Counted from the stretch's first letter, positions 35,381 through 50,033 are shown. The stretch: 64,000 nucleotides of DNA from an uncultured Desulfarculaceae bacterium (GCA_964514105.1 CAZEPJ010000014.1:1889-65888); one strand, 5' to 3'. The notes: generated by a model from the sequence alone, not told the origin. Numbers and translations: made by a program.

Positions 35381-36637
35381 ATGGGATACCAGCTGTGGAT
35401 CGGTCTCAAGTACTTGCGTGCCAAGCGAAGGCACGCGACCATCTCGGTCGTCACCTTTTTGTCGGTCCTGGGGGTGGGGGTCGGGGTCACGGCCCTCATC
35501 GTCGTGATTTCCGTGATCAACGGCTTCGAGGAGAACCTCAAGGAGAGAATCCTTGGGCTGACGGCCCATGCCCTCGTGTTTCAGCGGGGGCAGGAGATGA
35601 AGGACTGGGGGGAGGCCCGCCGGCAACTCCTGGAGGTGCCGGGCGTGGCCGGGGCCAGCCCCTTCATCGTCCGCGAGGTGATCCTCCAGGGAGCGACCAA
35701 GAGCGTGCAGGCGGTCATTCGCGCCGTGGACCCCCAGACCGTGGAAACCGTCATCCCGTTGGCCAAGATCCTTCAGGCGGGTCGCCTGTCCGATCTGAAT
35801 CCGCCCGACGGGGGCGACTATCCCGGGATCATCCTGGGCAAGGAACTCCTGAGAGAACTGGGGGCCGCCGTGGGCGACACGGTGGTCCTCGTTTCCCCCG
35901 AGGGCACTCTCACCCCATGGGGAAACCTTCCCAAATGGAAGCGGTTTCAGGTCAAGGGGTTTTTCGATGCGGGCTACTGGGACTTCGACTCCAAGGTGGG
36001 CCATATCTCCATCGCCGTGGCCCAGGATCTCTTTGAGATCCACGACCGGGTCACCGGGATCGAGCTGCGAATGCCCGACATCTACGCCGCTCCGCGGGTA
36101 CGCTTGAAGATTCACCAATCTCCCCTGGGCGCGAACTTCATCGTCCAGGACTGGACCCAGCTCAACCGCAACATCATGATCGCCCTGTCCATGCAGAAAC
36201 GGGTCATCTTCATCATCCTGCTGTGCATCGTGGGCGTGGCGGCGCTGCTCATCATCAGCATCCTGGTCATGATGGTGATGGAGAAGCAGAAGGAGATCGC
36301 CGTGCTCAAGGCCATGGGGGCCCGCTCCATGCACATCCTGTGCATCTTCGTCTGCCAGGGGCTCCTCATCGGGTCCGCGGGCACGGTCCTGGGATGCCTC
36401 GGAGGACTTCTCATCTCCTGGAATCTGGAGTGGATCGTCGGCGCCCTGGAACGAGCCCTGGACGTGCGCTTCCTCCCCGAGGACGTGTACTACGTGGGAC
36501 AGTTGACGTCCCGGGTCAGCCCGGCCGACCTGGGAATCATCGTGGTCGTCACCCTGCTTATCAGCGTGACCGCGAGCCTCTATCCGTCATGGCGCGCCTC
36601 CCGCCTGGACCCCGTGGAGGGGTTGCGGTACGAATGA
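35381..36637 (+). CDS. lolE: Lipoprotein-releasing system permease, LolC/LolE family (FtsX-like)
   Basis: Begins MGYQLWIGLKYLRAKRRHATISVVT. Four TM helices, a large periplasmic MacB-like domain, and the C-terminal FtsX motif. No lolD is adjacent. Confidence 0.8.
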   Translation: MGYQLWIGLKYLRAKRRHATISVVTFLSVLGVGVGVTALIVVISVINGFEENLKERILGLTAHALVFQRGQEMKDWGEARRQLLEVPGVAGASPFIVREVILQGATKSVQAVIRAVDPQTVETVIPLAKILQAGRLSDLNPPDGGDYPGIILGKELLRELGAAVGDTVVLVSPEGTLTPWGNLPKWKRFQVKGFFDAGYWDFDSKVGHISIAVAQDLFEIHDRVTGIELRMPDIYAAPRVRLKIHQSPLGANFIVQDWTQLNRNIMIALSMQKRVIFIILLCIVGVAALLIISILVMMVMEKQKEIAVLKAMGARSMHILCIFVCQGLLIGSAGTVLGCLGGLLISWNLEWIVGALERALDVRFLPEDVYYVGQLTSRVSPADLGIIVVVTLLISVTASLYPSWRASRLDPVEGLRYE

Positions 36638-36747
36638 GCCGGGGTCCCTGCCATCTTGACAACGCCTCAGTCATTTCATAGGCTCTTACCGCGTGCTGCC
36701 CCGACGATTCATTTCGGGCCGAGACTTGGCCGCGCACGGGTGCCCAG

Positions 36748-37236
36748 ATGACTGAGAACCGACGCAAGGAGATTCGCCGGGAGACGGACCGGGTCCTCGA
36801 CAAGCTCCTGGAGACCCTTCAGGTGGTGGAGAAGATCTCCAGGGGTGAGCAGGCCGACTTCACGGAGGCCTATGCCGACCTGGTCGGCCTCAAGAACCAG
36901 CTCGGCAGGCGGGAGGTGGACCGGCGAATCGGAGATGCCCTCTGCGCCACCATCGGCGCCATCGCGTCCAATATCGGCCACCCCGGGGAGACCAAGGAGC
37001 AACCTGCCGAGGAGCGATTGAGGCGCGTCCGCCTCACCAAGGTGAGCGGAGGCAAAGGCCACGCCACCATCGCCGGATGGGAGGAAGCGCCCCCGGAGGT
37101 GGGAAAGAGCTACCGGGTGTTTCAGGAAAACGGCAGCGTGGTGCGCACCTCCCCCATCACCCGTGTCTCGGAAGGGTTCGTTCAGACCCGCAACTCATTG
37201 TACCAACTGGAGATCCTTGGAGAGCAGACGGCGTGA
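36748..37236 (+). CDS. Hypothetical protein, second member of the conserved C-terminal-domain family
   Basis: Charged N-terminal region. The C-terminus (…RRVRLTKVSGGKGHATIAGWEE…SYRVFQENGSVVRTSPITRVSEGFVQTRNSLYQLEIL) aligns with the ORFs at 6073 and 47559. Confidence 0.5.
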   Translation: MTENRRKEIRRETDRVLDKLLETLQVVEKISRGEQADFTEAYADLVGLKNQLGRREVDRRIGDALCATIGAIASNIGHPGETKEQPAEERLRRVRLTKVSGGKGHATIAGWEEAPPEVGKSYRVFQENGSVVRTSPITRVSEGFVQTRNSLYQLEILGEQTA

Positions 37237-37262
37237 CCCCGCCGCGGTGCGGGCGCTCGCCA

Positions 37263-38312
37263 TCAGCCCGCCGCCGGTCGGTCCTTGAGGGACATCAGGG
37301 CCAGGGCGTTCTCCAGGGGCACGGACTTGGGGAAATCGCATCCCACGGTCAGGACGAACCCGCCGGCATCCCCCCACGCGCGGACGCAGTCCCGGGCCTC
37401 GGCCTCCACCTCCTGCGGCGTCCCCGAGAGGAAGGCCCCCGTGGGCGATACGTTGCCCGCCACGCAAACCTTTCCGCCCAGGACCCGGCGCGCCAGCCCC
37501 AGATCCACCTTGGACTCCAGGCTGAAGCAATCGGGGGCCATCTCCAGGACATCCCCCAGGATCCGCCCCGTGTCCCCGCAGATGTGCATGGAGCAGTGCT
37601 TCCCCCTGGCCTTCACCCTGTGGCACAACGCCTGAAGATGGGGTTTGGCCACAGTCCTGAAAGTCTGGGGCGAGATCAGGTCGCCCGAGGCCACGGGGTC
37701 GGAGAAGTTCACCCCCGCGATGTCCGGATGATCCAGGATGGGCTCCACCATGCCCCAGAGAAACTCGGTGCACACGGACAGCAGCCTCCCCAACCCATCG
37801 GGATCCTCCAAGGTCGCCATCATCACCGCGTCCGTGCCGGCGATGCGCGCCGCCGTGGTCAGGGGGCCCCATTGGGTAGGCAGGATCATGGCGTCCCTGC
37901 CGATGGCGTCCGCCACCAGGTGATGGGCCTCCGTGAGGCGTCCCATGAGGGGATGGCCCAGGGCCTGGTCCGGAGCAAGGCGGTCCACCTTTCCGACGGC
38001 CGGGATGGCCGGGCCCAGAAGGCGGGGTGTGTCCGATGATCGGTCCTCGATGGGGCAGCCCAGGAGGTGGGCCGGATAGTTGAGGAAGCCGGCGCCCGTC
38101 CAGATCAGGTCGTGGCCCAGTCGTTCATGGGCCTTCACGAACACCGCTGCCATCTCCCGGGGGTCCCGGACGATCTCGGCAAAGGTCTTTCGGGCTTGAT
38201 GGACGTACCACTCCCCCCCGGCGATGAGGGTCACGGGCACCCTCGGAGGCCGACGGCCGGCAAAGGCTTCGGCAACCACATCCTTCCCGCACATGGTCGA
38301 CGCACTACCCAT
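37263..38312 (-). CDS. Uroporphyrinogen decarboxylase (URO-D) family protein, MtaA/CmuA-like methyltransferase type
   Basis: URO-D family motifs (…FLNYPAH…, …SDPVASGDLISP…, …MHICGD…). Confidence 0.8.
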   Translation of the reverse strand: MGSASTMCGKDVVAEAFAGRRPPRVPVTLIAGGEWYVHQARKTFAEIVRDPREMAAVFVKAHERLGHDLIWTGAGFLNYPAHLLGCPIEDRSSDTPRLLGPAIPAVGKVDRLAPDQALGHPLMGRLTEAHHLVADAIGRDAMILPTQWGPLTTAARIAGTDAVMMATLEDPDGLGRLLSVCTEFLWGMVEPILDHPDIAGVNFSDPVASGDLISPQTFRTVAKPHLQALCHRVKARGKHCSMHICGDTGRILGDVLEMAPDCFSLESKVDLGLARRVLGGKVCVAGNVSPTGAFLSGTPQEVEAEARDCVRAWGDAGGFVLTVGCDFPKSVPLENALALMSLKDRPAAG

Positions 38313-38336
38313 TCAGCTTGTCCCCCCAACGGCCTG

Positions 38337-38376
38337 AAAAAAAAAACAGGGAAACCCATCATGGATTTCCCAGCAC
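38337..38376 (-). terminator. Rho-independent terminator after ssrA on the minus strand
   Basis: On the minus strand GGGAAA-N11-TTTCCC followed by T10 (plus-strand A10 at 38337-38346), directly after the tmRNA 3' CCA. Confidence 0.5.
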
Positions 38377-38387
38377 CGCTTTGAGGT

Positions 38388-38739
38388 TGGTGGAGGCGGC
38401 GGGAGTCGAACCCGCGTCCGGAAACCTTCAGCCAAGGCATCTACATACATAGCTCCTGTTTTGATCTCACCCGCCTCGGCTCCCAGGAGCAGGATCCTCG
38501 GCGGGCCAGCCTACTTGAATCTCGCCGCATCCCCTGCAGGCGTCAGGGATTTGGCCATCCCGCTGTTCGACGTCCTGTCCGGCCCCGCGGGCTGAACCGG
38601 AAGGACGTGGCCTTAAGCGGCCAGGGCGTAGTCGTAGTTGTCGGCGACTAACTTTGAGCCCTATCTGTTTAACGAGGGGATAGGAACCTCGGCATGCAGC
38701 CTTGACCTCAACTGTCCCCGTCGAAACCTTTTCGCCCCC
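38388..38739 (-). ncRNA. ssrA: tmRNA (ssrA, transfer-messenger RNA)
   Basis: The 5' end GGGGGCGAAAAGGTTTCGACGGGG and the 3' end …GGACGCGGGTTCGACTCCCGCCGCCTCCACCA (T-arm, acceptor stem with G3:U, CCA). Internal tag ORF AGUC|GCC GAC AAC TAC GAC TAC GCC CTG GCC GCT TAA, giving tag ADNYDYALAA. Length 352 nt. Confidence 0.85.
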
Positions 38740-38768
38740 CTTGGTTGAAGAAAACCACGCCCGATTTC

Positions 38769-38798
38769 ACTATAGCACTTGCCCCGGCCCGCCGACAA
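38769..38798 (-). promoter_or_regulatory. Candidate sigma70 promoter for ssrA (TTGTCG-18-TATAGT)
   Basis: The -10 TATAGT ends ~30 nt upstream of the mature tmRNA 5' end, consistent with a short RNase-P-processed leader. Confidence 0.35.
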
Positions 38799-39213
38799 GC
38801 CCAACCGCATTTGCGCTCCTGTCCATTTCGTCACGGGCGGCAAACAGGCTGCGGCAGCCCGATCTGCCTTCGTTTCACACCGCGGCGATCACCCTCTTGC
38901 CGCTCCCATGGGGGGGATGCTCGCCCTCCCGCGGCAAGGGAAACTGCCTGCTCGCCGGAAATGCATGTCTCATGGCTCTGCTGGGGAAGCAGGAGTCGGG
39001 GACCAAGGGCTCCCACCCCTTGCTGAAGGGTTGCCTCCGCTCTGGCACGCCTGTGTCTTATTGGTGAGTTGAGGTCAGAAAACGACATCGGCGGACATGC
39101 GACATAAGATGTTGTTATCAAAAGAACAAAAACTGGTCAAACCGTCATCAGCCAGAAGGCCTTCGTTACCATTATGTTATATCAACGACAATATTGGCCA
39201 AAGGAGGAGGCAG

Positions 39214-40074
39214 ATGCTCTCCAGATGGATCCTGCAGGCCGTTCTCCTGGGGCTTCCAGCCGGGGCGTTGGCGTTCCAGGTCCCCCTGTTCTGGGACCGC
39301 AACCCTGAAGCCGATCTGGCGGGGTACGTGCTCTACAACGGGACGCAGTCGGGCCAATATGACCACTCCTTCTGGATCGACAAGGAGGCCTGCACGGGGG
39401 ATGTCTGCCAAGTCACCCTGGAGCTGTCGGAGGGACATTGGTACGCATCGGTCACGGCGGTGAACGACGCCGGCCTGGAGAGCGAACCCAGCGAGGAGAT
39501 CCACATCATCCTCGGGCAGGACCAGCCTGTGGTGCTCTACCCCAACGGGTCCATCCGGTGGATCCGGGGATGTCCATACGAGATCCTATGGGAGAACTTC
39601 GACGCAGGGAACGTCTCGCTTCGGCTCATGAAGGATGGGCGGCTTCACAGGAAGATCGCCAAGAAGACGGCCAACGACGGACAGTTCGTCTGGAATGTTC
39701 ACAAGGCCCAGGCCCCGGGCGATGGGTTTCGGGTCCAGGTGTCGGCCGGTGGACAGTCAGACCTCTCGGATGAAGCGCTGGAGGTGGTGGCCCCCACGGT
39801 CCTGGCGCCCGCTGACGGGGCCTCCCTGGCTCGGGGAGCGGTGCACACCATCCAATGGGACAACGAGACCTTCTGCGGCAGCGATGTCCATGTGTATCTG
39901 TATCGGAAGAAGCGGGCATTTCGAGACATCGCCCTCTCGGCACCCAACACGGGGACCCTGCAATGGCTTGTCCCCGGCGATCTGCCTCCGGCCGGGACGT
40001 ATCGCCTCCGCATTCAGTCGGCGGCCCACGGCACGTGTGCCGCGTATTCCGACGGTCTGTTCGTGGTCAACTGA
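39214..40074 (+). CDS. Secreted protein with an N-terminal fibronectin-III-like domain and two tandem W-rich Ig-like repeats
   Basis: RBS AAGGAGGAGG, then a signal peptide. FN3-like motif FQVPLFWDRNPEADLAGYVLYNGTQSGQYD. Two ~95-aa repeats (…ILWENF…VSLRLMKDG…KTANDGQFVWNV… and …IQWDNETF…VHVYLYRK…APNTGTLQWLVP…). It is a paralog of 41867-42787. Confidence 0.7.
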   Translation: MLSRWILQAVLLGLPAGALAFQVPLFWDRNPEADLAGYVLYNGTQSGQYDHSFWIDKEACTGDVCQVTLELSEGHWYASVTAVNDAGLESEPSEEIHIILGQDQPVVLYPNGSIRWIRGCPYEILWENFDAGNVSLRLMKDGRLHRKIAKKTANDGQFVWNVHKAQAPGDGFRVQVSAGGQSDLSDEALEVVAPTVLAPADGASLARGAVHTIQWDNETFCGSDVHVYLYRKKRAFRDIALSAPNTGTLQWLVPGDLPPAGTYRLRIQSAAHGTCAAYSDGLFVVN

Positions 40075-40112
40075 GGAAGGGCATCCGACGAGCAGACTCA
40101 GCGAGGTTGACG

Positions 40113-40985
40113 ATGAAAGCCCTCACAAGCGCCAGGTATGTCTCCCTTGCCGTTCTCGGCTGGGCCCTCTTGTGCACGGGCTTGGCGGATGCGGCCACCT
40201 TCACCCTGCAGTGGGACCCCAACACCGAGCCCGATCTGGCGGGGTACAAGCTTCATTACGGCACGTCCTCGGGGACATACACCACCCACATCGACGTGGG
40301 GAACGTCACTACCTATGACGTGGCCGGCCTCCAAGACGGGGTGACCTACTATTTCGCCGTCACGGCCCGCGACACCGAAGGGAACGAGAGCGGCTATTCC
40401 AACGAGGTGTCGGGCAGGAAAAACCTGGCTCCCCAAGCCAGTGCCTCTGCCACCCCCACATCGGGGCACGCCCCATTGAGCGTCTCCTTCACCGGCTCCG
40501 GCACCGACCCCGACGGCACCATCGCCTCTTTCTCCTGGACCTTCGGCGACGGCGGCACCTCCTCGGCCCAGAGCCCTTCCCATACCTACTCCGCCCCCGG
40601 CACCTACACGGCCACACTCACCGTGACGGACAACGACGGCGCCACAGGCACCAAGTCCGTCCAGATCACCGTCTCCGCACCCAACCAGCCGCCCATGATC
40701 ACGGCCAGTGCCACACCTGCAAGAGGGGCACCCCCCCTGACCGTCACCTTCACCGGCAGCGCCACGGACAGCGATGGTACAGTCGTCTCCCTGTCGTGGG
40801 ACTTCGGCGACGGCGGCACGTCGCCCGGGCCCGACGCGACCCATTCCTATGATGCGGAAGGCACGTATACAGCTGTCCTCACGGCCACAGACGACGACGG
40901 TGCCACGTCCACCAAGTCCTTCGTCATCACCGTGAATGCAGCACCTAGCAGGCCCAAGGGCCTCAAGATCGGGAAGATCAAATAG
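40113..40985 (+). CDS. Secreted protein with a fibronectin-III-like domain and two PKD domains
   Basis: Signal peptide. FTLQWDPNTEPDLAGYKLHYGTSSGTYT FN3 signature. Two PKD repeats (…SFSWTFGDGGTS…HTYSAPGTYTATLTVTDNDGATGT… and …SLSWDFGDGGTS…HSYDAEGTYTAVLTATDDDGAT…). Confidence 0.75.
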   Translation: MKALTSARYVSLAVLGWALLCTGLADAATFTLQWDPNTEPDLAGYKLHYGTSSGTYTTHIDVGNVTTYDVAGLQDGVTYYFAVTARDTEGNESGYSNEVSGRKNLAPQASASATPTSGHAPLSVSFTGSGTDPDGTIASFSWTFGDGGTSSAQSPSHTYSAPGTYTATLTVTDNDGATGTKSVQITVSAPNQPPMITASATPARGAPPLTVTFTGSATDSDGTVVSLSWDFGDGGTSPGPDATHSYDAEGTYTAVLTATDDDGATSTKSFVITVNAAPSRPKGLKIGKIK

Positions 40986-41491
40986 CCGGGCGAGGTGCCG
41001 GAAACGGCGAGGGCCAGCCGCCGATCCTCTCGGTGGCTGGCCCTTGGCCCCGCCCCTGCGATGCCTGCACAGGTCGGTTCAGATCAAGAAGTGGCCTCTG
41101 AGAGGCACGCCTGGAGCGCTCCGTCTTCGAAGCCGGCACGTCGCTCAGCCTGTCTGCGCTCTCCGTTCCGCCGCTCGCCCCCGCGCCGTTCGCAACCTCG
41201 ACGTCGCACAGCCGCCCCCGACATCAACGCTTCCATGGCGATCCTAAAGGACCGCCGCTCCCCCCTCCTGCGTTCCCCTCTGCGGCGCTCCCCGTGACGC
41301 CTGTCGCCCCCAGCTCGCCTGTCTGTCGCTTGCCACTGCATCCCCCTTCGCCTCCCAACCGTTCCTCGCCCAACAGGCCGTCAGAATTTTACCCGTTCCC
41401 CATCGCCGTCGCAACCCCGGACACGGGTCAGACGCCCCGGCGGGTACGATCTTTGGCTTCGGGACCGACTGCCCCGCAACGAATTTTCTTG

Positions 41492-41521
41492 TTGACTTGC
41501 CGAAGCTTAGTTAGCTATAAG
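41492..41521 (+). promoter_or_regulatory. Candidate sigma70 promoter (TTGACT-18-TATAAG) in an AT-rich core of the ~880-bp non-coding gap
   Basis: TTGACT at 41492-41497 and TATAAG at 41516-41521. It would give a ~340-nt leader for the gene starting at 41867. Confidence 0.3.
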
Positions 41522-41866
41522 TAAGTCTAATTAACTGCTGGAGCCGCCCATTGAGACTCCGGAAGACGGCCCCGTTCATCCCGCGTCAGCCCTGCCCGCA
41601 CGTGTGCGCATCCTGCCCTTTCACCCAGGCGCCGGGTCCGACCCCAGCAAGCGGTTCGCCGGGACCCAGCGCGGCTCCTTGTCCCTGGCAAGGGTCTCCA
41701 CACGGCGGCGATCGAGGCACGACCCTTGCAAGACACAAGATGGAAAGGGGCTCAGGCCGGTGGACCCATCCCTTCCGGAGGGCCGCAAACACAGCACGGA
41801 AAAGGGATCAAGGCTGGCCGCGGCCCCCATGGGGGAGGGTACGTTTTTGACTGGTGCGTCAAGGCC

Positions 41867-42787
41867 ATGCACAATATTGCACATCCCGTAGCCCATGGGG
41901 TGGCCTGGGCACTCCTTGCCCTTCTGCTCTCGGCGGGGCACGCCAGGGCAGACGTGCTGACCCTCGCCTGGGACCACAGCCAGGACCCCGGCATTGCCGG
42001 CTACCGCCTCTATTGGGGCAATCATCCCAGGGGCCACGACGAGGACTCGCCGGACGTCTCTTCTCCGTACCCTTGGGACATGCCGGTGGATCTCCAGCGC
42101 TGCAAGGCGGGGACCTGCTCGACGCCGCCCCTGGAGTTCGACGCGGGCCCGTGGTATTTCGCCGTAACCGCCGTGTCCAGGTCAGGCACACCCAGCAAGT
42201 TCAGCGAGGAGGTCTCCAAAGTCATCCCGGATGAACCCACCCTGTTTTTTCCCCATGACGCACCGGCGATGGCCATGGGGTGTCAATACACCATCCGGTG
42301 GTCCGGCTTCCAGGGCGACAGGGTTTCCATTCACCTCCTCAAAGACGGCGGGGCGGTGAAAACCATCTCCAGGTCCACGGCCAACGACGGGGCGTTCCTC
42401 TGGAGGGTCCCCAAGAAGAAGCTGAGCCCCGCAGAGGGCTTCACGGTCCGGGTCAGTGCCGGGGCCGAAAGGGTTGAATCCGCGGCCCCGTTTGAGATTC
42501 TCTCCCCCGCGGTGACAGCCCCTTCCTCCGGGGAGATCCTCTCCCGGGGCGCCGCCGAGTTGATCCGGTGGGAGCCGGCCGGTTTCTGCCAAGGGCCGGT
42601 GAGCGTGTCTCTTCGAAGCGGGAAGAAGGCTTCCAGCGTCATTGCCCCAAACGCTCCGAACACGGGTGCGTGGACATGGATCGTGCCCCAGGAACAGAAG
42701 CCTGGAAGCAGGTTCCGGATTCAGGTCCAATCGACTTTGAACCCGGCCTGCAGAGGCGTCTCCCCAGGCTATTTCACGGTGCAGTGA
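41867..42787 (+). CDS. Secreted paralog of 39214-40074: FN3-like domain followed by two W-rich Ig-like repeats
   Basis: Signal peptide. LTLAWDHSQDPGIAGYRLYWGN FN3 signature. Repeats …IRWSGFQGDRVSIHLLKDG…STANDGAFLWRVP… and …IRWEPAGF…VSVSLRSGKK…APNTGAWTWIVP…. Confidence 0.7.
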   Translation: MHNIAHPVAHGVAWALLALLLSAGHARADVLTLAWDHSQDPGIAGYRLYWGNHPRGHDEDSPDVSSPYPWDMPVDLQRCKAGTCSTPPLEFDAGPWYFAVTAVSRSGTPSKFSEEVSKVIPDEPTLFFPHDAPAMAMGCQYTIRWSGFQGDRVSIHLLKDGGAVKTISRSTANDGAFLWRVPKKKLSPAEGFTVRVSAGAERVESAAPFEILSPAVTAPSSGEILSRGAAELIRWEPAGFCQGPVSVSLRSGKKASSVIAPNAPNTGAWTWIVPQEQKPGSRFRIQVQSTLNPACRGVSPGYFTVQ

Positions 42788-42918
42788 ACTGAGATGCGTG
42801 ACCTCGCAGACGGCAGGTAGATGGGGTTCCGCGGCAAGGCGGCCCCCCCCGACACCCCACGCACGCAGGGCCACGCGGTCCCCGGGCATTGAGGCCGATG
42901 CCACCGCGCGGGAGGCTG

Positions 42919-43110
42919 ATGATGAAGACACACATCACGACGCTTTTCCCGGATGCGTATTCGCCATCGCCGGCCCAGGAGCCATCGGCGCAGCTCGCTC
43001 TGGAGACGCGGGACAGCATGCTCCCGGGTGTCCGGTTCTTGAGAGGCCTCCTCCTGGCCGCCCTGCTCAGTCTCCCCTTTTGGGCCGCGCTGGCTTGGCT
43101 GATCCTGTAG
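42919..43110 (+). CDS. Small hypothetical protein with a C-terminal transmembrane helix
   Basis: GGGAGG before ATG ATG (MMKTH…). C-terminal LLLAALLSLPFWAALAWLIL. Confidence 0.4.
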   Translation: MMKTHITTLFPDAYSPSPAQEPSAQLALETRDSMLPGVRFLRGLLLAALLSLPFWAALAWLIL

Positions 43111-43234
43111 GCCATCCGCGCCCCCCCCGTCTGCGCCCTTTTCCCGGCCACGTACAAGACCCTCGCGTGCCTCTTTGCCCTGCCGGCTGCTACGACGCCC
43201 CTGGATTTCCGCTGGAGCCGCCGCTGAAAGGGGG

Positions 43235-45697
43235 CTAGGGAAGGGGGGCCGTCGCCACGCCCCCGTTGCTGCTGCGCACGGTGACCCAGGGGGGTTTGAC
43301 CAGCACGTTCTTGAACTTGCGAGAATGACTCCGGGACTTCTTCTTGTACAACAGGTTCCCGAGGCCGTCAGCCCACAGGGTCACGCTTCCAGGGGTTGCG
43401 TTGGACTTGGCCCTGACCGTGAGGACCCTCTTCTTGTACTTGACTTGGGTCACGGTCACGGTGTCCGCCGCGTCCCCCACCCTCAGGGCCACCGACGCCG
43501 CAGATCCCCAAGCGCCGGTATGATCCCGGGCCCGAACCTGGAGGGTGTAGCTTCCGTTGGGCCACCCCGACACATCCACCTGGGTCCCGACGGATTCGAC
43601 CGACCCGCCCAACGCCCCGTCCAGGGGCGCCATGGCCGCCCCCGGCCCCTCCCTGGGATCCACCCACCACTCCACTTCCGCGATGGGCGAGCCGCCCGGG
43701 AGACCGGCCGTGGCGCTCAGGACCACCAGGGTCTGGCCGAGGGTGGGATTGGGCGACGCCGCCACGTCGAAGACGGTGGGCCCCGTGCGAGCGGGCGCCA
43801 CTGCGGGCCAAAGCCCGCCATGGGCCAGGCCGTACGATTCCCATTGCACAGGCACCTGGAATAGAGAGGGCATGCCCGCCGCGGCATCGTCAAAGGCCTC
43901 CAGCCATCCGCCCCCGCCCTTGCCCGGCCCCACCAGCACCTCATCTCGTCCGTCGCCGTCGAGATCTCCGGCGGCTGGATGTGTCTCGCCGGCCAGGCGA
44001 TTGTAGTCCGTCGCGCTCAAGGTGATCCAGGCCAGATGGGTCGGGTAGCCGTATGCGTAGTCCATGACCGCCACCCTCCCGCCGCCCCGTTTCCCCATGC
44101 CCAGAAGGATCTCGGCCCTGCCGTCCCCATCCAGGTCGGCGCAGGCGGGCCAGCTCTCTCCGTTGGCTGAGTTGTATTCCGCCCAGTCAATGGCCCCCCA
44201 GGCCAGGGGAAGGGCATCGCGGGTGACCACGAAGGCGCCGCCGGGCAGCGCGGCATTGCCCGATACCGGGCCCAGACCAAGGACCACCTCCCGCTCGCCG
44301 TCTCCGTCCACGTCCCCCGCAGCCGGCCGCACCTCGCCGCTGGCCGTGTTGTAGTCGTCCCAGTCCAACAAGAGCCACTCTCTGTGGGTGACAGCCCCTG
44401 CGGCATACTGAAAGACCTCGACGCGCCCCCCGCCCCCGGCCCCCAACCCTATGAGGATCTCGTCACGGCCGTCTCCGTCCAGGTCGCCGCAGGCCGGCCA
44501 GGTCTCCCCGTTGGCGGCGTTGTACTCGGGCCAGTTCACCTGTCCCCAGGCCAGATGGTTGTACTGGCTGTCCAGAATCAAGAACATGCCGTTGGGTATG
44601 GGCGGAGGCCCGGCTTCCCCCCGTCCCAGGCCCACCACGATCTCGGATTGCCCATCACCGTCCAGATCTCCCACAGCCACCCGGGCCTCCCCGCTCAGGG
44701 CCTCGTACTCGGGCCAGCCCAGTCGCAGCCAGAACTCATGGAATAGATCCTCACTCAGGAAATCGATGACTCCGCCCGCCGGGGGATACGGACCCAGGCC
44801 GGCGATGACCCGCCCATAGCCCACCGCCGACGACGCCGTCACCGTCACCGCCACCGTGGCGCTCCCCGTCCCCCCCCGGTTGTCCGTCACCGTCAGCCTC
44901 GCCGTATAACTCCCCGCCGAAACATACGTGTGGGACGGGTTCTGAACACTGGATGTGCCCCCGTCCCCAAACGTCCACGCATACGACGCAATGCTCCCGT
45001 CCGGGTCGCTCCCGCTCCCCGTGAACGCCACCGTCAGGGGCGAGGTCCCTGAAATCGGCGTCCCCGAGGCCGTCGCAATGGGCAGCTGGTTGGGCGCCGT
45101 CACCGTCACCGCCACCGTGGCGCTCCCCGTCCCCCCCCGGTTGTCCGTCACCGTCAGCCTCGCCGTATAACTCCCCGCCGAAACATACGTGTGGGACGGG
45201 TTCTGAACACTGGATGTGCCCCCGTCCCCAAACGTCCACGCATACGACGCAATGCTCCCGTCCGGGTCGCTCCCGCTCCCCGTGAACGCCACCGTCAGGG
45301 GCGAGGTCCCTGAAATCGGCGTCCCCGAGGCCGTCGCAATGGGCAGCTGGTTGGGCGCCGATGCTGTCGTATGGGAGATCTCTTCCGAAAACCCGCTTTG
45401 AAGGGCCTCGTAGTAGGCCTTCACTGCGAAGAAATACTGCTGTCCGTCGGCCAGATCCGTGAAGGTATAACTGGTGGTCTTGCCCACATCCAGGCTGAAG
45501 GTGTAGTTGCCGCTGGAGGTCCCGCGAAAGACGATGTATCCCGAGATCGGCTCGGGATTCGGGTCCCAGGCGAGCGTGACCGGGTCAGCCCCCCGGGCCT
45601 CCCAGGGCATGGCCCCGGCCAAAGCCAGGAGCGCCAGGGCTGCTCCCCCGAGCCGGCGGCCCCACAGGTCCCCAACACGGCGAAGAAGAGATCTCAT
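43235..45697 (-). CDS. Large secreted protein of 820 aa: FN3-like domain, two identical PKD domains, FG-GAP/VCBS-type repeats, and a C-terminal beta-rich region
   Basis: Signal peptide with RR. VTLAWDPNPEPISGYIVFRGTSSGNYT FN3 signature. Two 87-aa PKD units identical at both protein and DNA level. Five or more repeats of …GDLDGDG(R/Q)(D/A/S)E(I/V)… (FG-GAP-like). Confidence 0.8.
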   Translation of the reverse strand: MRSLLRRVGDLWGRRLGGAALALLALAGAMPWEARGADPVTLAWDPNPEPISGYIVFRGTSSGNYTFSLDVGKTTSYTFTDLADGQQYFFAVKAYYEALQSGFSEEISHTTASAPNQLPIATASGTPISGTSPLTVAFTGSGSDPDGSIASYAWTFGDGGTSSVQNPSHTYVSAGSYTARLTVTDNRGGTGSATVAVTVTAPNQLPIATASGTPISGTSPLTVAFTGSGSDPDGSIASYAWTFGDGGTSSVQNPSHTYVSAGSYTARLTVTDNRGGTGSATVAVTVTASSAVGYGRVIAGLGPYPPAGGVIDFLSEDLFHEFWLRLGWPEYEALSGEARVAVGDLDGDGQSEIVVGLGRGEAGPPPIPNGMFLILDSQYNHLAWGQVNWPEYNAANGETWPACGDLDGDGRDEILIGLGAGGGGRVEVFQYAAGAVTHREWLLLDWDDYNTASGEVRPAAGDVDGDGEREVVLGLGPVSGNAALPGGAFVVTRDALPLAWGAIDWAEYNSANGESWPACADLDGDGRAEILLGMGKRGGGRVAVMDYAYGYPTHLAWITLSATDYNRLAGETHPAAGDLDGDGRDEVLVGPGKGGGGWLEAFDDAAAGMPSLFQVPVQWESYGLAHGGLWPAVAPARTGPTVFDVAASPNPTLGQTLVVLSATAGLPGGSPIAEVEWWVDPREGPGAAMAPLDGALGGSVESVGTQVDVSGWPNGSYTLQVRARDHTGAWGSAASVALRVGDAADTVTVTQVKYKKRVLTVRAKSNATPGSVTLWADGLGNLLYKKKSRSHSRKFKNVLVKPPWVTVRSSNGGVATAPLP
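44834..45355. repeat. Perfect tandem duplication (2 x 261 bp) inside the large secreted-protein gene, encoding two identical PKD domains
   Basis: Positions 44834-45094 and 45095-45355 are identical base for base (checked at anchors: GCCGTCACCGTCACCGCC at 44835 and 45096, GCTCCCC at 44861 and 45122). The period is a multiple of 3. Confidence 0.85.
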
Positions 45698-45725
45698 TGA
45701 ACGCCCCCCGGCGCCGGAGGCCCTT

Positions 45726-46553
45726 CTATGCGCCGCTCCCCCCCTTCAAGGTGAGGGACAGCCGGTCCAGGTGGGGAAGGGAGCCCAGGATGGGTGCTTG
45801 CAGGTATCGGGCCACCTGACGCTCCGACTTGAACGACGGATCCGTCCACTCGAGGACCCCGAGCCAGATCAGGATGATTGCAGCAGACGAGATCAGGAGC
45901 ATGAGCACGGTGGGGAGACGCCCGGGGCGCCACACGGACCGGAGTTGCTCCATCTGCAGCGGCCCTTTGAGCGCCGCCGCCATCCCATCCTGTCTGGCCC
46001 CAGCGGCGTCCGAAGCCGTTGGGGCATCGAGCCGGGCGGCCGCCGGCTTGGGCTGGCCGGGTCCCTGCTGCTGTTTCCACCGGCTTCGCCGCTGCCCCTC
46101 CTCGGCCTTTCGGACCAGGCGCCCGGCATAATACGCGACCAGCGCCTCTCCCAGCTTCCCGTCGCCCCCCCGGTACGCGATGCGAACGGTGTCGTTGGAA
46201 GGGACCGTCAGGGACATGGTCCGTTCCACGGTCTGGGAAAATGGCCCCATGGCCCGATCCCCGGCGCCCGCATTCAGTTCCAACTGGCCATGGAGCTCAC
46301 GGATGGCAAAACGGTCCAGGAAGAATTCCGCCGGCTTGGCGATCACGTCCCCCATCCTCGTGAAATCCACCGGGCTCGTAGACAGCGCGATGGGGGCGTC
46401 GGGGGCGATGGCCACATCCTGCCGTACCGTGATCTGATCCACGCTGGCGGCCGACACAAGCACATACACAAGGGGAGGCGCGAGCGCGGCCAGGAACCAC
46501 AGGCGGCGCGTCACAAGGCCGTGGCCATAGCGCCTCAGGGCGAAACCGATCAT
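45726..46553 (-). CDS. Wzz / polysaccharide co-polymerase (PCP)-like membrane protein
   Basis: RBS AAGGAGAG before the ATG (MIGFALRRYG…). TM1, a periplasmic region, TM2, and the C-terminal SERQVARYLQAPILGSLP typical of the PCP-to-kinase junction. Confidence 0.6.
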   Translation of the reverse strand: MIGFALRRYGHGLVTRRLWFLAALAPPLVYVLVSAASVDQITVRQDVAIAPDAPIALSTSPVDFTRMGDVIAKPAEFFLDRFAIRELHGQLELNAGAGDRAMGPFSQTVERTMSLTVPSNDTVRIAYRGGDGKLGEALVAYYAGRLVRKAEEGQRRSRWKQQQGPGQPKPAAARLDAPTASDAAGARQDGMAAALKGPLQMEQLRSVWRPGRLPTVLMLLISSAAIILIWLGVLEWTDPSFKSERQVARYLQAPILGSLPHLDRLSLTLKGGSGA

Positions 46554-46597
46554 CGCCAGCTCTCCTTCCCCCAACCCCTGCACGCCGCCGACACCCC

Positions 46598-47323
46598 TCA
46601 GGCCAGGGGGTTTTTCCACTGGTTGACGACCACGCCCAACAGCTTGGCGCCGGCTGCGTCGAGCATCATCCGGGCCCTCTTCACCATGTGTCGCGACGTC
46701 ACGTTGGCCAGGACCACGAGGATCACCCCGTCCACGGCCCTGGCCAGGGCCACGGGATCCATCATCCGGCGGTTGGTCGGGAACACGGACGATGCGTCCA
46801 GCACCACCGTGTCGTACGCCCGCCGGGCCCACTGAACGATGCCCAGACCCAACTCGGTCACGTTTCCCCCGCCCGATCCCGGCGGCACGCCGTCGACGGC
46901 GGACAGGATCTCCAGTCCGTTGAGACCCGAAGGCTGCACCAAACCGCGCAGCACCTCCGCACCCTCCAGAACCACTTCGTCGGGTTTGCCCTCTTTGGGC
47001 GGCGCAGGGGGAGGCCCCGCCGGTCGGGACGGCAGTCTCTCTGCTTCGATGAGGCCCAGACCGAACAGGGTGTGGAGGGCGGGGGCGTACCAGTTCAAGT
47101 CAACGGTCAGGACACGCTGGTGATCCTGAGTGGCGGCCACCGTGGCCAGGCCGGCGGCCACCGTCGTTTTCCCCTCTCCGGGCATGGAGCTTGTGACGAG
47201 CACGCAACGGGAGGCGGCTTTGGGCAAGGTGGCCGAGGCGGCGGCGTGGATGCGCTTCACCTCGGCTATTTGCGAGAGCAATCCCAAGCGCGACGCGGCA
47301 TCTGAGCCCATTGCGAAGACCAC
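46598..47323 (-). CDS. CpsD/CapB-type (BY-kinase-like) P-loop ATPase without a C-terminal Tyr cluster
   Basis: Walker A …VLVTSSMPGEGKTTVAAGLA…, Walker A' and B motifs (…VVLDASSV…). It ends …VNQWKNPLA, so no Y-rich tail. Confidence 0.65.
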   Translation of the reverse strand: MVFAMGSDAASRLGLLSQIAEVKRIHAAASATLPKAASRCVLVTSSMPGEGKTTVAAGLATVAATQDHQRVLTVDLNWYAPALHTLFGLGLIEAERLPSRPAGPPPAPPKEGKPDEVVLEGAEVLRGLVQPSGLNGLEILSAVDGVPPGSGGGNVTELGLGIVQWARRAYDTVVLDASSVFPTNRRMMDPVALARAVDGVILVVLANVTSRHMVKRARMMLDAAGAKLLGVVVNQWKNPLA

Positions 47324-47384
47324 CCAGGCGAATTGTCGACGTCAAGGATGCGCGCTGAAGCGTTTTTTCTTACCTTGTTCGAGT

Positions 47385-47440
47385 GCCCCTGATTTGTCAA
47401 TCCTGATTTCCCTGATTCTGATAAGGATTTTCCTGATCCA
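47385..47440. promoter_or_regulatory. Four direct repeats of CCTGATT spaced ~10-12 bp apart in the divergent intergenic region
   Basis: cCCTGATTtg, tCCTGATTtc, CCTGATTctg and tCCTGATcc between the minus-strand start at 47323 and the plus-strand start at 47559. Confidence 0.3.
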
Positions 47441-47558
47441 GGACCTCGATCCCGCCGCAGGGCGTGGATTGAGGGAACACTTGCCAAACAAATCATGATT
47501 TGATAAGAATCGTGCAATTCTCCCGCCACAACGGGGGCCGGGGGAGCCTGGCCATGGC

Positions 47559-48113
47559 TTGGGGGTCCATATCAAAGCCATGGGCCGCGCGACCCGAGGG
47601 AGGGATGTGGACGGTTACCCGATCATTGCCACGGGGCTGATCTCACTGTGCGTCGGGTTTCTGGCCGGACGGCTCTGGGGCCATCGGTGGAAACGCGAGG
47701 CCGACTACCTGAAGAAACAGCTGGATGAGACCGAGCGGCTGCTGGACGGACTGGCCTGGATCGGAGGCAGCCACCGTCCCGAGCCCCAGGTCACGGCCCA
47801 GGAAAACCCCCCCGGGCCCCAGCCGGCCACCCGCGCGGAACTGGAGAACACGCAGAACGTGGGCGTGACCCAGCCCCCCGAGACCCCGTCTCCTGCCAAG
47901 CGCAGGGTGCGCGTCACGCGGATCCTGGGGAAAAAAGACGGGGTCCAGAGGAACGAATCGTTCGAGGGGCTGGAGGAAGCCCTGCCCATGGTGGGCAAGC
48001 GCTACTGCGTGTCCACGGACCACGACACGGTGATCCGCTCCTCCACGGTCATCCAGGTCGCCTCGGGCTACTTCATGACCCGCAACTCCGTGTACAGGGT
48101 CGACCCGCTCTGA
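47559..48113 (+). CDS. Hypothetical membrane-anchored protein, third member of the conserved C-terminal-domain family
   Basis: N-terminal TM (IIATGLISLCVGFLAGRLW), a Pro-rich linker, and the C-terminus …RRVRVTRILGKKDG…KRYCVSTDHDTVIRSSTVIQVASGYFMTRNSVYRVDPL, which aligns with the ORFs at 6073 and 36748. Confidence 0.5.
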   Translation: MGVHIKAMGRATRGRDVDGYPIIATGLISLCVGFLAGRLWGHRWKREADYLKKQLDETERLLDGLAWIGGSHRPEPQVTAQENPPGPQPATRAELENTQNVGVTQPPETPSPAKRRVRVTRILGKKDGVQRNESFEGLEEALPMVGKRYCVSTDHDTVIRSSTVIQVASGYFMTRNSVYRVDPL

Positions 48114-48146
48114 CCCCTGTTGCCCGGCGCCATGCCGGCCCGGCCC

Positions 48147-48443
48147 TCACCATTTCTCCATGAGCTCGCCCATGGTCTTGCCCGGCCTGAGCTTGCCCTG
48201 GTAGTTGATGAAGGTCTCCACCTTGACGGGCTCGAACTGCTTCTTGGGGACCGAGGTGGCCTCCTGGTGCCAGAGCCACATGTGTCCCTCCACCGTGTCC
48301 AGGATGAGGACGTTGGGCAGCTCCCGGATCGACCCCGGCTGGAGAAGGATCGCCTGGTACCGACCGGGGCTCTGGGCCTCGACGGAAACGGCCATGCAAG
48401 TGCCGCAAAGGACCGCTGCCAGGACCACCACGAGTGCTTTCAT
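48147..48443 (-). CDS. Small secreted hypothetical protein of 98 aa
   Basis: RBS GGGAGG, then signal peptide MKALVVVLAAVLCGTCMAVSVEA. Confidence 0.5.
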   Translation of the reverse strand: MKALVVVLAAVLCGTCMAVSVEAQSPGRYQAILLQPGSIRELPNVLILDTVEGHMWLWHQEATSVPKKQFEPVKVETFINYQGKLRPGKTMGELMEKW

Positions 48444-48944
48444 GCGCGCCTCCCGAATCTCGTCATCTTCCGTCCCTCACGGCCCCGGCCCAGCGCGTTT
48501 CCCGAAGGTGCCGGGAAGCCCGTGCTTCGATCCCAGGGCAATTTAACGCACATGGCATCCGGTCTTGGCCCACTTTCCGACTCAATCCGGCCGCTGGCGC
48601 TCTTTCCCCCAAGACACCAAGGCCGCTCCCTGGAGCGCCCCCACCGCCCGGCCGGAACTCCCCCTCCAATCAATCCCGCCCCAGGGGGCCACCATATCCA
48701 TTCGCCCCTCGTTTCCCCCTCCCCCCCCAACTTGGGCATCACCATCCGTGTGTGCCCAAGCGGTCCGCTTTTCTCGTCGTCCACCCGTTTGCTTTGTCAG
48801 GAAGATGCCCTGCCCGGTTCAAGGATCCCCGCGATCCGCCTCCTTACCCTGATGTTCTTGGCCCTGGGATTCGCATCGCCTTCGGCAAGGGATTCCGACG
48901 GCCCGCCAAGGGACGATCCGACCGCGCGCCGGCTCACGACCCCT

Positions 48945-49829: not shown

Positions 49830-49897
49830 GGACCCATCCTTCTGTCACCGCCGCAGACCGGGATTCGTGGGCCGTTCTTGTGGTTCGTTTCACAACC

Positions 49898-50033
49898 CGT
49901 GATTGGCGACCGTGATACGTGTCTGTCGTTTGTTTTCGTATGCCATGGTTGGGCGCCTGCGCTGCGTGGTTCGAGTCCGTATCAAGCCCCCCAACCCACC
50001 GAACCCAACCAACTCAAGCAACGCAAGCAACCC
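49898..50033. repeat. Copy B of the ~130-bp intergenic repeat element, with a partial extra copy at 49861-49897
   Basis: ~80% identical to copy C along its whole length (CGTGATTGGCGACCGTGATACGTGTCTGTCGTTTGTTTTCGTATGCCATGGTTGGGCG…CAAGCCCCCCAACCCACCGAACCCAA…). It lies 69 nt upstream of the minus-strand start at 49829. Confidence 0.55.

What the first reader, a model, noticed from the sequence alone, without database searches (positions are those of the whole stretch)
39214..45697. Cluster of four secreted paralogous proteins, each starting with the same fibronectin-III-like module, inserted between ssrA and the EPS locus
Four genes (39214-40074, 40113-40985, 41867-42787 and 43235-45697 on the minus strand) encode signal-peptide proteins. 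All open with the same FN3-like signature: (F/V/L)TL(A/Q)WD(P/H)N.EPD(L/I)(A/S)GY.(L/V)(Y/F/H).G(T/N).SG.Y.. After this come different C-terminal modules: two proteins have 2x W-rich Ig-like repeats (I.W…VS(I/L).L…G…(T/A)(A/P)N.G.(F/W).W.VP), one has 2x PKD, and the large one has 2x PKD plus five or more FG-GAP/VCBS-like repeats. None carries PEP-CTERM, LPXTG or an obvious type 9 secretion C-terminal domain, so their anchoring or secretion route is unclear. The cluster contains two AT-rich promoter patches and an unusual ~880-bp non-coding gap (40986-41866). It looks like a diversifying surface/adhesion or matrix-protein family that may function with the adjacent exopolysaccharide machinery.
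Basis: partly seen in the sequence, partly recalled or inferred. Interest (0 to 1): 0.55.

Follow-up and report, generated by a model that had tools for sequence, protein, structure and literature searches.

The report
Secreted FN3-fronted proteins beside exosortase locus
Four exported proteins built from common bead-like domains are real. They belong to a small gene cluster, conserved in several uncultured anaerobes and probably sigma-54-controlled, that sits with a slime (exopolysaccharide)/exosortase system; the parts are ordinary but the conserved combination has not been described.

Summary
Four ORFs at the stated coordinates encode signal-peptide proteins that begin with one FN3 module; P1-P3 are on the + strand and only P4 is on the minus strand. 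They form two paralogue pairs: P1/P3 (FN3 + 2x Kre9_KNH Ig-like) and P2/P4 (FN3 + 2x PKD; P4 adds an FG-GAP propeller and C-terminal domains). None carries PEP-CTERM, LPXTG or a T9SS signal.

Three points need correcting:
- The "non-coding 880-bp gap" holds a conserved 85-aa arginine-rich ORF on the minus strand, plus a divergent promoter region.
- The cluster is not an insertion at ssrA. P4 is the third gene of an operon with a BY-kinase-like ATPase lacking the tyrosine cluster and a short chain-length-determinant-like membrane protein.
- The proteins are not diversifying faster than their neighbours.

The ATPase-membrane protein-P4 triad recurs in two other lineages. P1->P2 recurs in two, and the small ORF in one. 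Sigma-54-type -24/-12 sites sit upstream of all three transcription units, and PEP-CTERM genes or exosortase loci lie nearby.

Best reading: a sigma-54-controlled accessory module of an exosortase/EPS system that supplies exported glycan- or matrix-binding proteins. All domains are known, the function is inferred, and interest is moderate.

The parts
39043..39059 (+). Conserved sigma-54-like -24/-12 block TGGCACGCCTGTGTCTT, about 155 nt upstream of P1. Its -12 element reads TC instead of GC.
   Evidence: It is the only conserved island in the P1 upstream alignment with L049. The motif occurs only upstream of P1 orthologues in all loci held. L054 has a canonical GGCAC-N5-TTGC site at the equivalent place.
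39214..40074 (+). P1: signal peptide + FN3 (with a CxxxxC insert) + 2x Kre9_KNH Ig-like domains, 286 aa. It has a strong Shine-Dalgarno sequence (AAAGGAGGAGG).
   Evidence: AF2 model pLDDT 86.3 with three beta-sandwiches. Orthologues are in L049/L051 (49% identity) and L054.
40113..40985 (+). P2: signal peptide + FN3 + 2x PKD, 290 aa, with a conserved basic tail NAAPSRPKG. It lies 38 nt downstream of P1 and is probably co-transcribed with it.
   Evidence: Its orthologue in L049 is 56% identical and the P1->P2 order is kept in L049, L051 and L054.
40991..41059 (.). GC-rich hairpin between the convergent P2 and small ORF, probably a bidirectional terminator.
   Evidence: Read from the sequence (stem GGGCCAGCC/GGCTGGCCC). 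The only Rfam match here is a sub-threshold chance hit.
41084..41341 (-). Conserved arginine-rich small ORF of 85 aa. It has two blocks of (D/E)RRxG pentapeptide repeats around a short hydrophobic segment and no signal peptide.
   Evidence: Homologues sit in L049 (72 aa, 54% identity) and L051 (76 aa), in the same position convergent with P2. Of 70 aligned residues 39 are kept, 22 of them by different codons. Eight of 20 conserved Arg residues switch between CGN and AGR codons. A Shine-Dalgarno sequence and a promoter-like site lie at 41414-41386. There is no Pfam or NCBIfam hit.
41480..41545 (+). AT-rich patch containing TTGACT-18-TATAAG, in the divergent region between the small ORF and P3.
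   Evidence: Read from the sequence. No orthologue is available for comparison.
41715..41730 (+). Sigma-54-type site AGGCACGACCCTTGCA, 137 nt upstream of P3.
   Evidence: It is nearly identical to the site upstream of the P1-like gene in L054, GGGCACAACCCTTGCG.
41867..42787 (+). P3: paralogue of P1 (38% identity over the full length), 306 aa. It is absent from the orthologous clusters, so it is a lineage-specific extra copy.
42919..43110 (+). 63-aa ORF with a C-terminal transmembrane segment and a strong Shine-Dalgarno sequence (GGGAGG), downstream of P3. It is specific to this window.
43235..45697 (-). P4: signal peptide + FN3 + 2x PKD + FG-GAP beta-propeller (five DxDxDG motifs) + Y_Y_Y-like Ig domain + an unassigned C-terminal domain, 820 aa.
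   Evidence: Full-length orthologue P0297 is 53% identical over 98% of the query. The L050 homologue is 43% identical.
44834..45355 (-). Perfect 261-bp tandem duplication, which makes the two PKD domains of P4 identical.
   Evidence: Independent metagenome contigs end exactly at the repeat junction, window position 45095.
45726..46553 (-). Short membrane protein with two transmembrane segments, like a chain-length determinant (PCP), 275 aa. Its stop codon lies 28 nt before the P4 start.
   Evidence: Its second transmembrane segment and the 'SFK...LGSLP' tail resemble the XrtA chain-length determinant (pairwise E=0.035). There is no Pfam or NCBIfam hit. Orthologues are 43% (L049) and 34% (L050) identical.
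46598..47311 (-). BY-kinase-like P-loop ATPase without the C-terminal tyrosine cluster. It is the first gene of the operon that contains P4.
   Evidence: TIGR03018 and TIGR01007 score about 55 bits, below their cut-offs. It is 30% identical to the genuine XrtA-type kinase at 48945-49829. Orthologues are 50% (L049) and 41% (L050) identical.
47513..47528 (-). Sigma-54 -24/-12 site TGGCGGGAGAATTGCA, about 200 nt upstream of the ATPase gene.
   Evidence: It is conserved in L049 as TGGAACGGGAATTGCA, within otherwise unalignable sequence.
47559..48113 (+). Divergently transcribed protein with a transmembrane segment, a coiled coil and a conserved ~60-aa C-terminal domain. A paralogue lies at 36748-37236(+).
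   Evidence: A homologue lies beside the cluster in L049 (35% and 46% identity) and L051. There is no family hit.

Best explanation
The four proteins are Sec-exported, non-enzymatic-looking chains of beta-sandwich domains. They form two paralogue pairs that share one N-terminal FN3 module.

They belong to a conserved accessory module of a PEP-CTERM/exosortase exopolysaccharide system. One operon runs: sigma-54 promoter -> BY-kinase-like ATPase without a Tyr cluster -> short PCP-like membrane protein -> P4 (-> arginine-rich small protein in relatives). It converges on a second sigma-54-type operon, P1 -> P2. This genome has added a third unit, P3 plus a 63-aa membrane peptide.

Shown here: the anatomy, the paralogy, the operon linkage, the synteny in other lineages, and the conserved -24/-12 sites.

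Inferred: the units are switched on together with the EPS genes by a sigma-54 activator (a PrsR-like one lies at 58534-60054). The exported proteins then bind the polysaccharide or matrix, or each other, in the periplasm or outside the cell, through Ig-like, PKD and Ca2+-propeller domains. In this way they would help to organise, retain or process the polymer. The common FN3 may be a shared docking handle.
For: Domains and paralogy.

P4 starts 28 nt after the PCP-like gene, which follows the kinase-like gene.

The flanking locus is a complete XrtA-type set: export protein, chain-length determinant, Tyr kinase, an ExeA-like P-loop ATPase ORF (assigned by reading its translation, not scored), TIGR03016 outer-membrane protein and exosortase. 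A sigma-54-dependent response regulator of the PrsR type is present (Pfam domains only), and a PEP-CTERM protein lies at 62641-63348.

Synteny:
- L049/L051 (Thermodesulfobacteriota) carry kin-mem-P4-sORF converging on P1-P2, flanked by PEP-CTERM genes.
- L050 carries kin-mem-P4-like.
- L054 carries P1-P2.

Sigma-54 sites are conserved upstream of the kinase operon and of P1, and one is present upstream of P3.

Literature: PEP-CTERM genes are RpoN-dependent, with PrsK/PrsR predicted as regulators (PMC9850573). Fungal Kre9/Knh1 are cell-surface proteins of beta-1,6-glucan assembly (PMC13604645).

Unrelated FN3-PKD proteins lie inside or beside exosortase/EPS loci in L027 and L020.
Against: - There is no direct evidence of expression, location or ligand.
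- The window-wide count of sigma-54-like sites is no higher than chance (13 found vs 10.5 expected). The case rests on conservation in only one to two other lineages.
- The P1 site has a non-canonical -12 element (TC).
- No outer-membrane translocation or anchoring signal was found, so 'extracellular matrix' is an assumption.
- In L051 the exosortase genes themselves are not within the 20 kb seen.
- All comparison loci come from a handful of metagenome contigs.
Confidence: 0.55

Rival explanations
1. The proteins are periplasmic parts of a second polysaccharide co-polymerase/export or processing complex. P4's Ca2+ beta-propeller would act on the polymer as a lyase- or hydrolase-like or chaperoning domain. 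It would work together with the short PCP-like protein and its ATPase. P1-P3 would be periplasmic scaffolds rather than surface adhesins.
For: The proteins carry only a Sec signal, with no outer-membrane targeting signal. P4 is in an operon with PCP-like and BY-kinase-like genes in three lineages. Foldseek lists PL11 rhamnogalacturonan lyase 4cag among the hits (rank 15). Pfam gives faint RGL11_C and carrageenase-propeller matches.
Against: The lyase matches are weak (TM about 0.2-0.3) and are driven by the generic propeller and Ca2+ motif. No catalytic residues could be assessed. The propeller scores as ordinary FG-GAP. PKD/FN3 arrays are more typical of extracellular proteins.
Confidence: 0.25
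2. The proteins are generic, functionally independent secreted adhesins that merely happen to lie next to the EPS locus. The shared FN3 would reflect only the abundance of this FN3 subtype.
For: The FN3 subtype placed right after a signal peptide is very common. The profile search found 1760 hits, mostly small FN3(+dockerin, Big_7 or PKD) proteins. The Kre9_KNH repeat occurs in over 15,000 proteins, mostly giant repeat proteins. In Pfam and NCBIfam scans all four proteins matched generic domain models only; no family model passed its cut-off.
Against: Gene order, operon fusion and promoter motifs are conserved across lineages whose orthologues share only 34-56% identity. PEP-CTERM genes flank the cluster in L051.
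Confidence: 0.15
3. The cluster is a mobile or diversifying island inserted at the tmRNA gene.
For: It lies adjacent to ssrA. GC is slightly lower over P1 (0.606 vs about 0.67). An extra paralogue, P3, is present only here.
Against: The cluster lies 5' of ssrA, whereas islands integrate at its 3' end. No repeat of ssrA sequence was found in 38700-47600. None of the ORFs listed in 36000-50000 that were scanned or read matched an integrase, but not every ORF there was scanned. The orthologous clusters have no tRNA or tmRNA nearby. Orthologue divergence equals that of neighbouring genes.
Confidence: 0.05

Closest known systems
PEP-CTERM/exosortase (XrtA-type) EPS loci with PrsK/PrsR and RpoN control (Haft's TIGR03007, TIGR03018, TIGR03027 and TIGR02602 gene set; Zoogloea/Aquincola floc formation)
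   Same: The cluster is contiguous with a complete locus of this type. Its transcription units carry sigma-54-type promoters, like the RpoN-dependent PEP-CTERM gene pepA (PMC9850573). PEP-CTERM genes flank the orthologous cluster.
   Different: The four proteins lack the PEP-CTERM sorting signal, so they are not exosortase substrates. The kin/mem pair scores below the curated cut-offs of the XrtA families. The FN3/PKD/Kre9_KNH/FG-GAP proteins and the Arg-rich small ORF matched no XrtA/PEP-CTERM-system model in the NCBIfam scans.
Split PCP-2b / BY-kinase pairs (CapA/CapB, B. subtilis EpsA/EpsB)
   Same: A short membrane protein with two transmembrane segments and a juxtamembrane C-terminal tail is followed or preceded by a separate ~230-aa P-loop ATPase of the BY-kinase family. 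The pair sits at the head of an operon tied to EPS. This comparison rests on my knowledge of those systems.
   Different: The ATPase has no C-terminal tyrosine cluster. Its Walker A' motif is VD(L/Y)NW in all three lineages instead of DxDxR (read). The gene order is ATPase first. The operon continues with a secreted FN3-PKD-propeller protein, not with glycosyltransferases.
Bacterial multi-domain FN3/PKD/FG-GAP (VCBS-type) secreted proteins and adhesins
   Same: They have the same domain repertoire and a beads-on-a-string build.
   Different: The proteins here are small (286-820 aa). They carry no recognised anchor. The FN3 is always the first domain. The genes sit in a conserved operon context with EPS-type genes.
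Fungal Kre9/Knh1 cell-surface proteins (PF10342)
   Same: They share the Kre9_KNH N-terminal Ig-like domain, scoring above the Pfam cut-off in P1 and P3. They also share a link to assembly of an extracellular polysaccharide (PMC13604645).
   Different: This is domain-level homology only. The bacterial proteins have two tandem copies behind an FN3, with no Ser/Thr-rich or GPI region. The same repeat is mostly found in giant bacterial repeat proteins.

Membership tests
Fibronectin type III domain (PF00041) | Profile match above the Pfam gathering score, or an FN3 beta-sandwich fold | tested here: met
   P2 scores 37.3 bits and P4 36.5 bits against a cut-off of 25. P1 and P3 fall below the Pfam cut-off. 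However, P1's N-terminus matches P2's at E=6e-8, the family profile hits fibronectin in the PDB at E=0.005, and the AF2 model (pLDDT 86.3) best matches triple-FN3 fragments.
PKD domain (PF18911/PF00801) | Profile match above the gathering score, in two copies | tested here: met
   P2 scores 142.4 bits and P4 149 bits on PKD_4, with two matched stretches each.
Kre9/KNH-like Ig-like domain (PF10342) | Profile match above the gathering score of 24.6 bits | tested here: met
   P1 scores 47.3 bits and P3 38.7 bits, with two stretches each. An exhaustive search shows the same repeat in 15,376 proteins.
FG-GAP repeat / integrin-alpha-type propeller (PF01839, PF13517) | Several FG-GAP repeats with DxDxDG Ca2+ motifs forming a propeller | tested here: met
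   FG-GAP scores 65.4 bits and FG-GAP_3 53.3 bits. Five DxDxDG motifs can be read in the sequence. The AF2 model shows repeated four-strand blades at residues 330-610 with pLDDT 70-87.
PEP-CTERM exosortase substrates (TIGR02595) | C-terminal PEP motif + transmembrane helix + basic tail | tested here: not met
   There is no NCBIfam hit. A scan of C-terminal tails finds the motif only in the ORF at 62641-63348. The P1/P3 orthologues end at the last beta-strand.
LPXTG or T9SS C-terminal sorting domains | C-terminal sorting domain matched by its profile | tested here: not met
   No such family appears among the Pfam or NCBIfam hits for the four proteins.
Bacterial tyrosine (BY) autokinase, XrtA-associated (TIGR03018/TIGR01007) | Score above the curated cut-off; Walker A, A' and B motifs; C-terminal tyrosine cluster | tested here: not met
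   The protein at 46598-47311 scores 55-57 bits against cut-offs of 230 and 108. Walker A (GEGKT) is present. Walker A' is degenerate (VDLNW). There is no tyrosine cluster; the protein ends ...NQWKNPLA. The genuine kinase at 48945-49829 has YGYAYKAYYGGEPY. It is therefore BY-kinase-like, not a member.
Polysaccharide co-polymerase / chain-length determinant (TIGR03007, Wzz) | Profile match; two transmembrane segments flanking a periplasmic domain | tested here: inconclusive
   There is no Pfam or NCBIfam hit for 45726-46553. The L049 orthologue matches TIGR03007 at E=0.09, over the TM2/tail region only. Pairwise comparison with the window's own chain-length determinant gives E=0.035. The two-transmembrane topology was judged by eye.
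Sigma-54 (RpoN) promoters | GG at -24 and GC at -12 with fixed spacing, upstream of the gene and conserved; dependence on RpoN | tested here: inconclusive
   The sequence criteria are met for the kinase operon in two lineages, for P3 and for the P1-like gene in L054. P1 in the window and in L049 has TC at -12. The window-wide frequency is not above chance. RpoN dependence cannot be tested here.
ssrA-targeted genomic island | Integrase plus a direct repeat of the ssrA 3' end, located 3' of ssrA | tested here: not met
   The tmRNA lies at 38388-38739 on the minus strand, so its 3' end faces away from the cluster. No ssrA-derived repeat was found in 38700-47600. The orthologous clusters lack a tRNA or tmRNA.

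The most novel reading that the evidence does not exclude
The conserved set is an undescribed, sigma-54-regulated accessory system of exosortase/EPS loci in Thermodesulfobacteriota-like anaerobes. It comprises a pseudo-BY-kinase ATPase, a short PCP-like membrane protein, a secreted FN3-PKD-propeller protein, an (D/E)RRxG-repeat small protein and the FN3-Ig/PKD pair. In this reading the common N-terminal FN3 is a docking handle that loads different binding modules onto one membrane complex or polymer. The unannotated arginine-rich protein would be a new kind of cytoplasmic regulator or nucleic-acid binder of the system.
Probability: 0.25. Interest if true: 0.6.

Novelty: new variant of a known kind. 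Interest (0 to 1): 0.4.

Why it matters
Exosortase/PEP-CTERM systems are widespread in sediment and sludge bacteria and drive floc and biofilm formation. Beyond the PEP-CTERM substrates themselves, their protein partners are poorly known. This conserved, co-regulated set of exported FN3-fronted proteins has no PEP-CTERM tag. It is fused in an operon to a kinase-like/PCP-like pair and carries a never-annotated arginine-rich small gene. That gives concrete, testable candidates for matrix organisation or EPS processing in uncultured sulfate-reducer-like lineages. The case also shows how a GC-rich 'non-coding gap' can hide a real small gene. Taken alone, the individual proteins are ordinary.

Tried and rejected
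- A word-index search with P1 found only P1 itself.
- The one genome-contig scan and the one metagenome-contig scan, run with P1/P3 profiles, returned only FN3-only or repeat-only matches. Neither returned the window's own genome.
- The NCBI contig of the window could not be fetched. The organism stayed unnamed, and even PilT has no relative at 90% identity or more.
- Rfam at E<=1 found nothing in the gap or leaders apart from the tmRNA, so no riboswitch is supported.
- A PDB sequence search with the P4 propeller and C-terminus found nothing.
- Foldseek on the full P4 model gave only generic multi-domain hits with low TM-scores. I do not rely on the PL11 lyase hit.
- The C-terminal 190 aa of P4 were modelled poorly.
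- Sigma-54 enrichment across the window is not significant.
- No convincing sigma-54 site was seen upstream of the window's PEP-CTERM gene.
- A lipoprotein or Tat signal was considered and rejected on reading the N-termini (no lipobox Cys at +1; RRLGG in P4 lacks the hydrophobic pair).
- The ssrA island idea was rejected.
- The 63-aa ORF and the small secreted ORF at 48147-48443 have no homologues in the related loci.

Full report
**1. The observation**

The four ORFs exist at the stated coordinates. P1 (39214-40074), P2 (40113-40985) and P3 (41867-42787) are on the + strand; only P4 (43235-45697) is on the minus strand. All have the GC3 bias of real genes in this 67% GC window (0.79-0.82). 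Each starts with a hydrophobic signal sequence ending in an AxA-type site. I judged this by eye; no predictor was available.

- P1 and P3 carry two Kre9_KNH Ig-like domains.
- P2 carries fn3 plus two PKD domains.
- P4 carries fn3, two PKD domains, FG-GAP repeats (five DxDxDG motifs) and a Y_Y_Y-like Ig domain.

The shared N-terminal module is true homology:
- P1 vs P2 gives E=6e-8, and P3 vs P4 gives E=1e-3.
- P1 and P2 share 74% DNA identity over 73 nt.
- P1 and P3 fall below Pfam's fn3 cut-off. A confident AF2 model of P1 (pLDDT 86.3) is nevertheless three beta-sandwiches that best match triple-FN3 fragments.
- A profile of the module finds exactly these four ORFs in the window.

The four form two pairs. 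P1/P3 are 38% identical over their full length and share a CxxxxC insert. P2/P4 are 55% identical over FN3 + 2x PKD. None has a PEP-CTERM, LPXTG or T9SS signal.

**2.

(a) The 880-bp gap is not empty. On the minus strand, 41084-41341 encodes an 85-aa protein. It has two blocks of (D/E)RRxG repeats, a Shine-Dalgarno sequence and a promoter-like site at 41414-41386. Homologues of 72-76 aa lie at the same position, convergent with P2, in L049 and L051.

Of 70 aligned residues, 39 are conserved, 22 of them through different codons. Eight of 20 conserved arginines switch between CGN and AGR codons, and no other reading frame is as well conserved. This is selection at the protein level. The ORF has no Pfam or NCBIfam match. 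Neither the window copy nor the L049 copy is in the 15-billion-protein collection; only the L051 copy was called as a gene.

(b) P4 is the third gene of an operon. Its ATG lies 28 nt after the stop of a 275-aa chain-length-determinant-like protein with two transmembrane segments (45726-46553). That gene follows a BY-kinase-like ATPase (46598-47311). The ATPase is 30% identical to the locus's genuine XrtA-type kinase. It scores below the family cut-offs and has no tyrosine cluster.

(c) The flanking locus is a complete XrtA-type exosortase EPS system. It has a sigma-54-dependent response regulator of the PrsR type and a PEP-CTERM protein.

**3. Conservation elsewhere**

The only full-length P4 orthologue found (P0297, 53% identity) lies on contig L049. 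A 78-kb relative, L051, comes from a Thermodesulfobacteriota lineage. Both show the order kin -> mem -> P4 -> small ORF, converging on P1 -> P2. PEP-CTERM genes lie alongside, and the same TM/coiled-coil gene seen at window 47559-48113 is nearby.

A more distant contig, L050 (GC 56%), keeps kin -> mem -> an FN3/PKD/FG-GAP protein. L054 keeps P1 -> P2. P3, with its 63-aa companion ORF, is absent elsewhere, so it is the lineage-specific addition.

Orthologue identities for the exported proteins are 49-56%. Those for the ATPase and the membrane protein are 50% and 43%. There is therefore no sign of accelerated diversification.

No tRNA or tmRNA accompanies the cluster in L049 or L050. In the window, the tmRNA's 3' end faces away from the cluster. 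'Inserted at ssrA' is not supported.

**4. Regulation**

Alignment of the otherwise unalignable upstream regions leaves single conserved islands:
- Upstream of the ATPase gene: TGGCGGGAGAATTGCA in the window and TGGAACGGGAATTGCA in L049, a canonical GG-N10-GC site.
- Upstream of P1: TGGCACG(C/T)CT(G/C)TGTCTT. This motif is found only upstream of P1 orthologues.
- In L054 the equivalent site is canonical, GGGCACAACCCTTGCG. It closely resembles the site upstream of P3, AGGCACGACCCTTGCA.

The window-wide frequency of such sites is at chance level. The argument therefore rests on position and conservation.

RpoN dependence of PEP-CTERM genes, and a predicted PrsK/PrsR role, are documented in Aquincola (PMC9850573).

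**5. How common the parts are**

The FN3 subtype placed right after a signal peptide is abundant. The profile search found 1760 hits, mostly 110-220-aa proteins with dockerin, Big_7 or PKD tails. The Kre9_KNH repeat occurs in over 15,000 proteins, mostly giant repeat proteins. Only P3 and one other protein (P0136) share the full P1 architecture among 1.8 billion representatives.

FN3-PKD proteins with other C-termini sit inside or beside exosortase/EPS loci in L027 and L020.

**6. Interpretation**

Best reading (confidence 0.55): this is a sigma-54-controlled accessory module of an exosortase EPS system. It supplies exported beta-sandwich and propeller proteins that bind, organise or process the polymer or matrix. 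The anatomy, synteny and promoter motifs are shown. Co-regulation, location and ligand are inferred.

Rivals:
- Periplasmic partners of a second PCP-like complex, possibly with a polymer-processing propeller (0.25).
- Unrelated generic adhesins (0.15).
- An ssrA island (0.05).

The domain families are all known and membership is met for each. The kin/mem pair fails or is inconclusive for BY-kinase and PCP membership, but plausibly works like a split CapA/CapB-type pair.

**7. Verdict**

The finding is real and the domain reading was accurate. The individual proteins are ordinary. The conserved gene set and the hidden small ORF are undescribed as far as the family libraries and two targeted literature searches show. 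I rate it a new variant of a known kind, with interest 0.4.

Noticed in passing
window 41084-41341 (-); L049 6145-6363 (+); L051 11843-12073 (-): Conserved small ORF of 72-85 aa, arginine-rich, with (D/E)RRxG pentapeptide repeats. It has no family match. Neither the window copy nor the L049 copy is in the large protein collection; only the L051 copy was called as a gene.
   Followed up: yes
window 44834-45355: Perfect 261-bp tandem duplication that makes the two PKD domains of P4 identical at the DNA level. Short-read contigs (L047/L048) break exactly at the junction (window 45095). This could reflect recent gene conversion or an assembly effect. The orthologue also has two PKD domains that look similar by eye (identity not computed).
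   Followed up: partly
window 36748-37236 (+) and 47559-48113 (+); L049 9399-10019; L051 8164-8817: Paralogous proteins that share a ~60-aa C-terminal domain (RVRVTK...Y.V...IRT.P...TRNSVY); the 47559-48113 copy and the L049 homologue also have an N-terminal transmembrane segment and a coiled coil. They flank the cluster here, and one copy lies beside it in the related lineage. No Pfam or NCBIfam family matches.
   Followed up: partly
window 42919-43110 (+): 63-aa ORF with a strong Shine-Dalgarno sequence and a C-terminal transmembrane helix, just after P3. It was called in JGI contigs but has no homologue in the related loci.
   Followed up: partly
window 47395-47450 (minus-strand leader of the ATPase operon): Four to five AATCAGG-type heptamer repeats lie between the sigma-54 site and the start codon. 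They are not conserved in L049.
   Followed up: no
window 62641-63348 (-): A genuine PEP-CTERM protein (...VPEPGTLMLLGLGLLAVGVAGNRMRHRKR), 37% identical to the PEP-CTERM protein that sits next to the cluster in L049.
   Followed up: partly
L027 9956-11782 (+): A protein with a signal peptide, 3x FN3 and 2x PKD lies between PrsR/PrsK-like genes and an exosortase gene. It ends in a GCFIATAAYGS... motif (CFI-box-like, recalled from memory and not tested) followed by a transmembrane segment.
   Followed up: no
window 5995-6010 (+): The only perfect sigma-54 consensus in the window (TGGCACGGGCGTTGCA). The gene downstream was not examined.
   Followed up: no
P1 family alignment A9 (window P1 residues C60, C65, C120, C221, C275): Five invariant cysteines. 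Going by sequence positions alone (the model was not checked for this), C60/C65 could pair within the FN3 insert and C221/C275 within the second Ig-like domain. C120 has no obvious partner, so it may form an intermolecular disulfide or stay as a free thiol.
   Followed up: no
L049 400-580: A long ACAGAC/AGACGG-type microsatellite-like stretch lies upstream of the PEP-CTERM gene. It is followed by a sigma-54-type site, CGGCACATTTCTAGCA, about 70 nt before the ATG.
   Followed up: no
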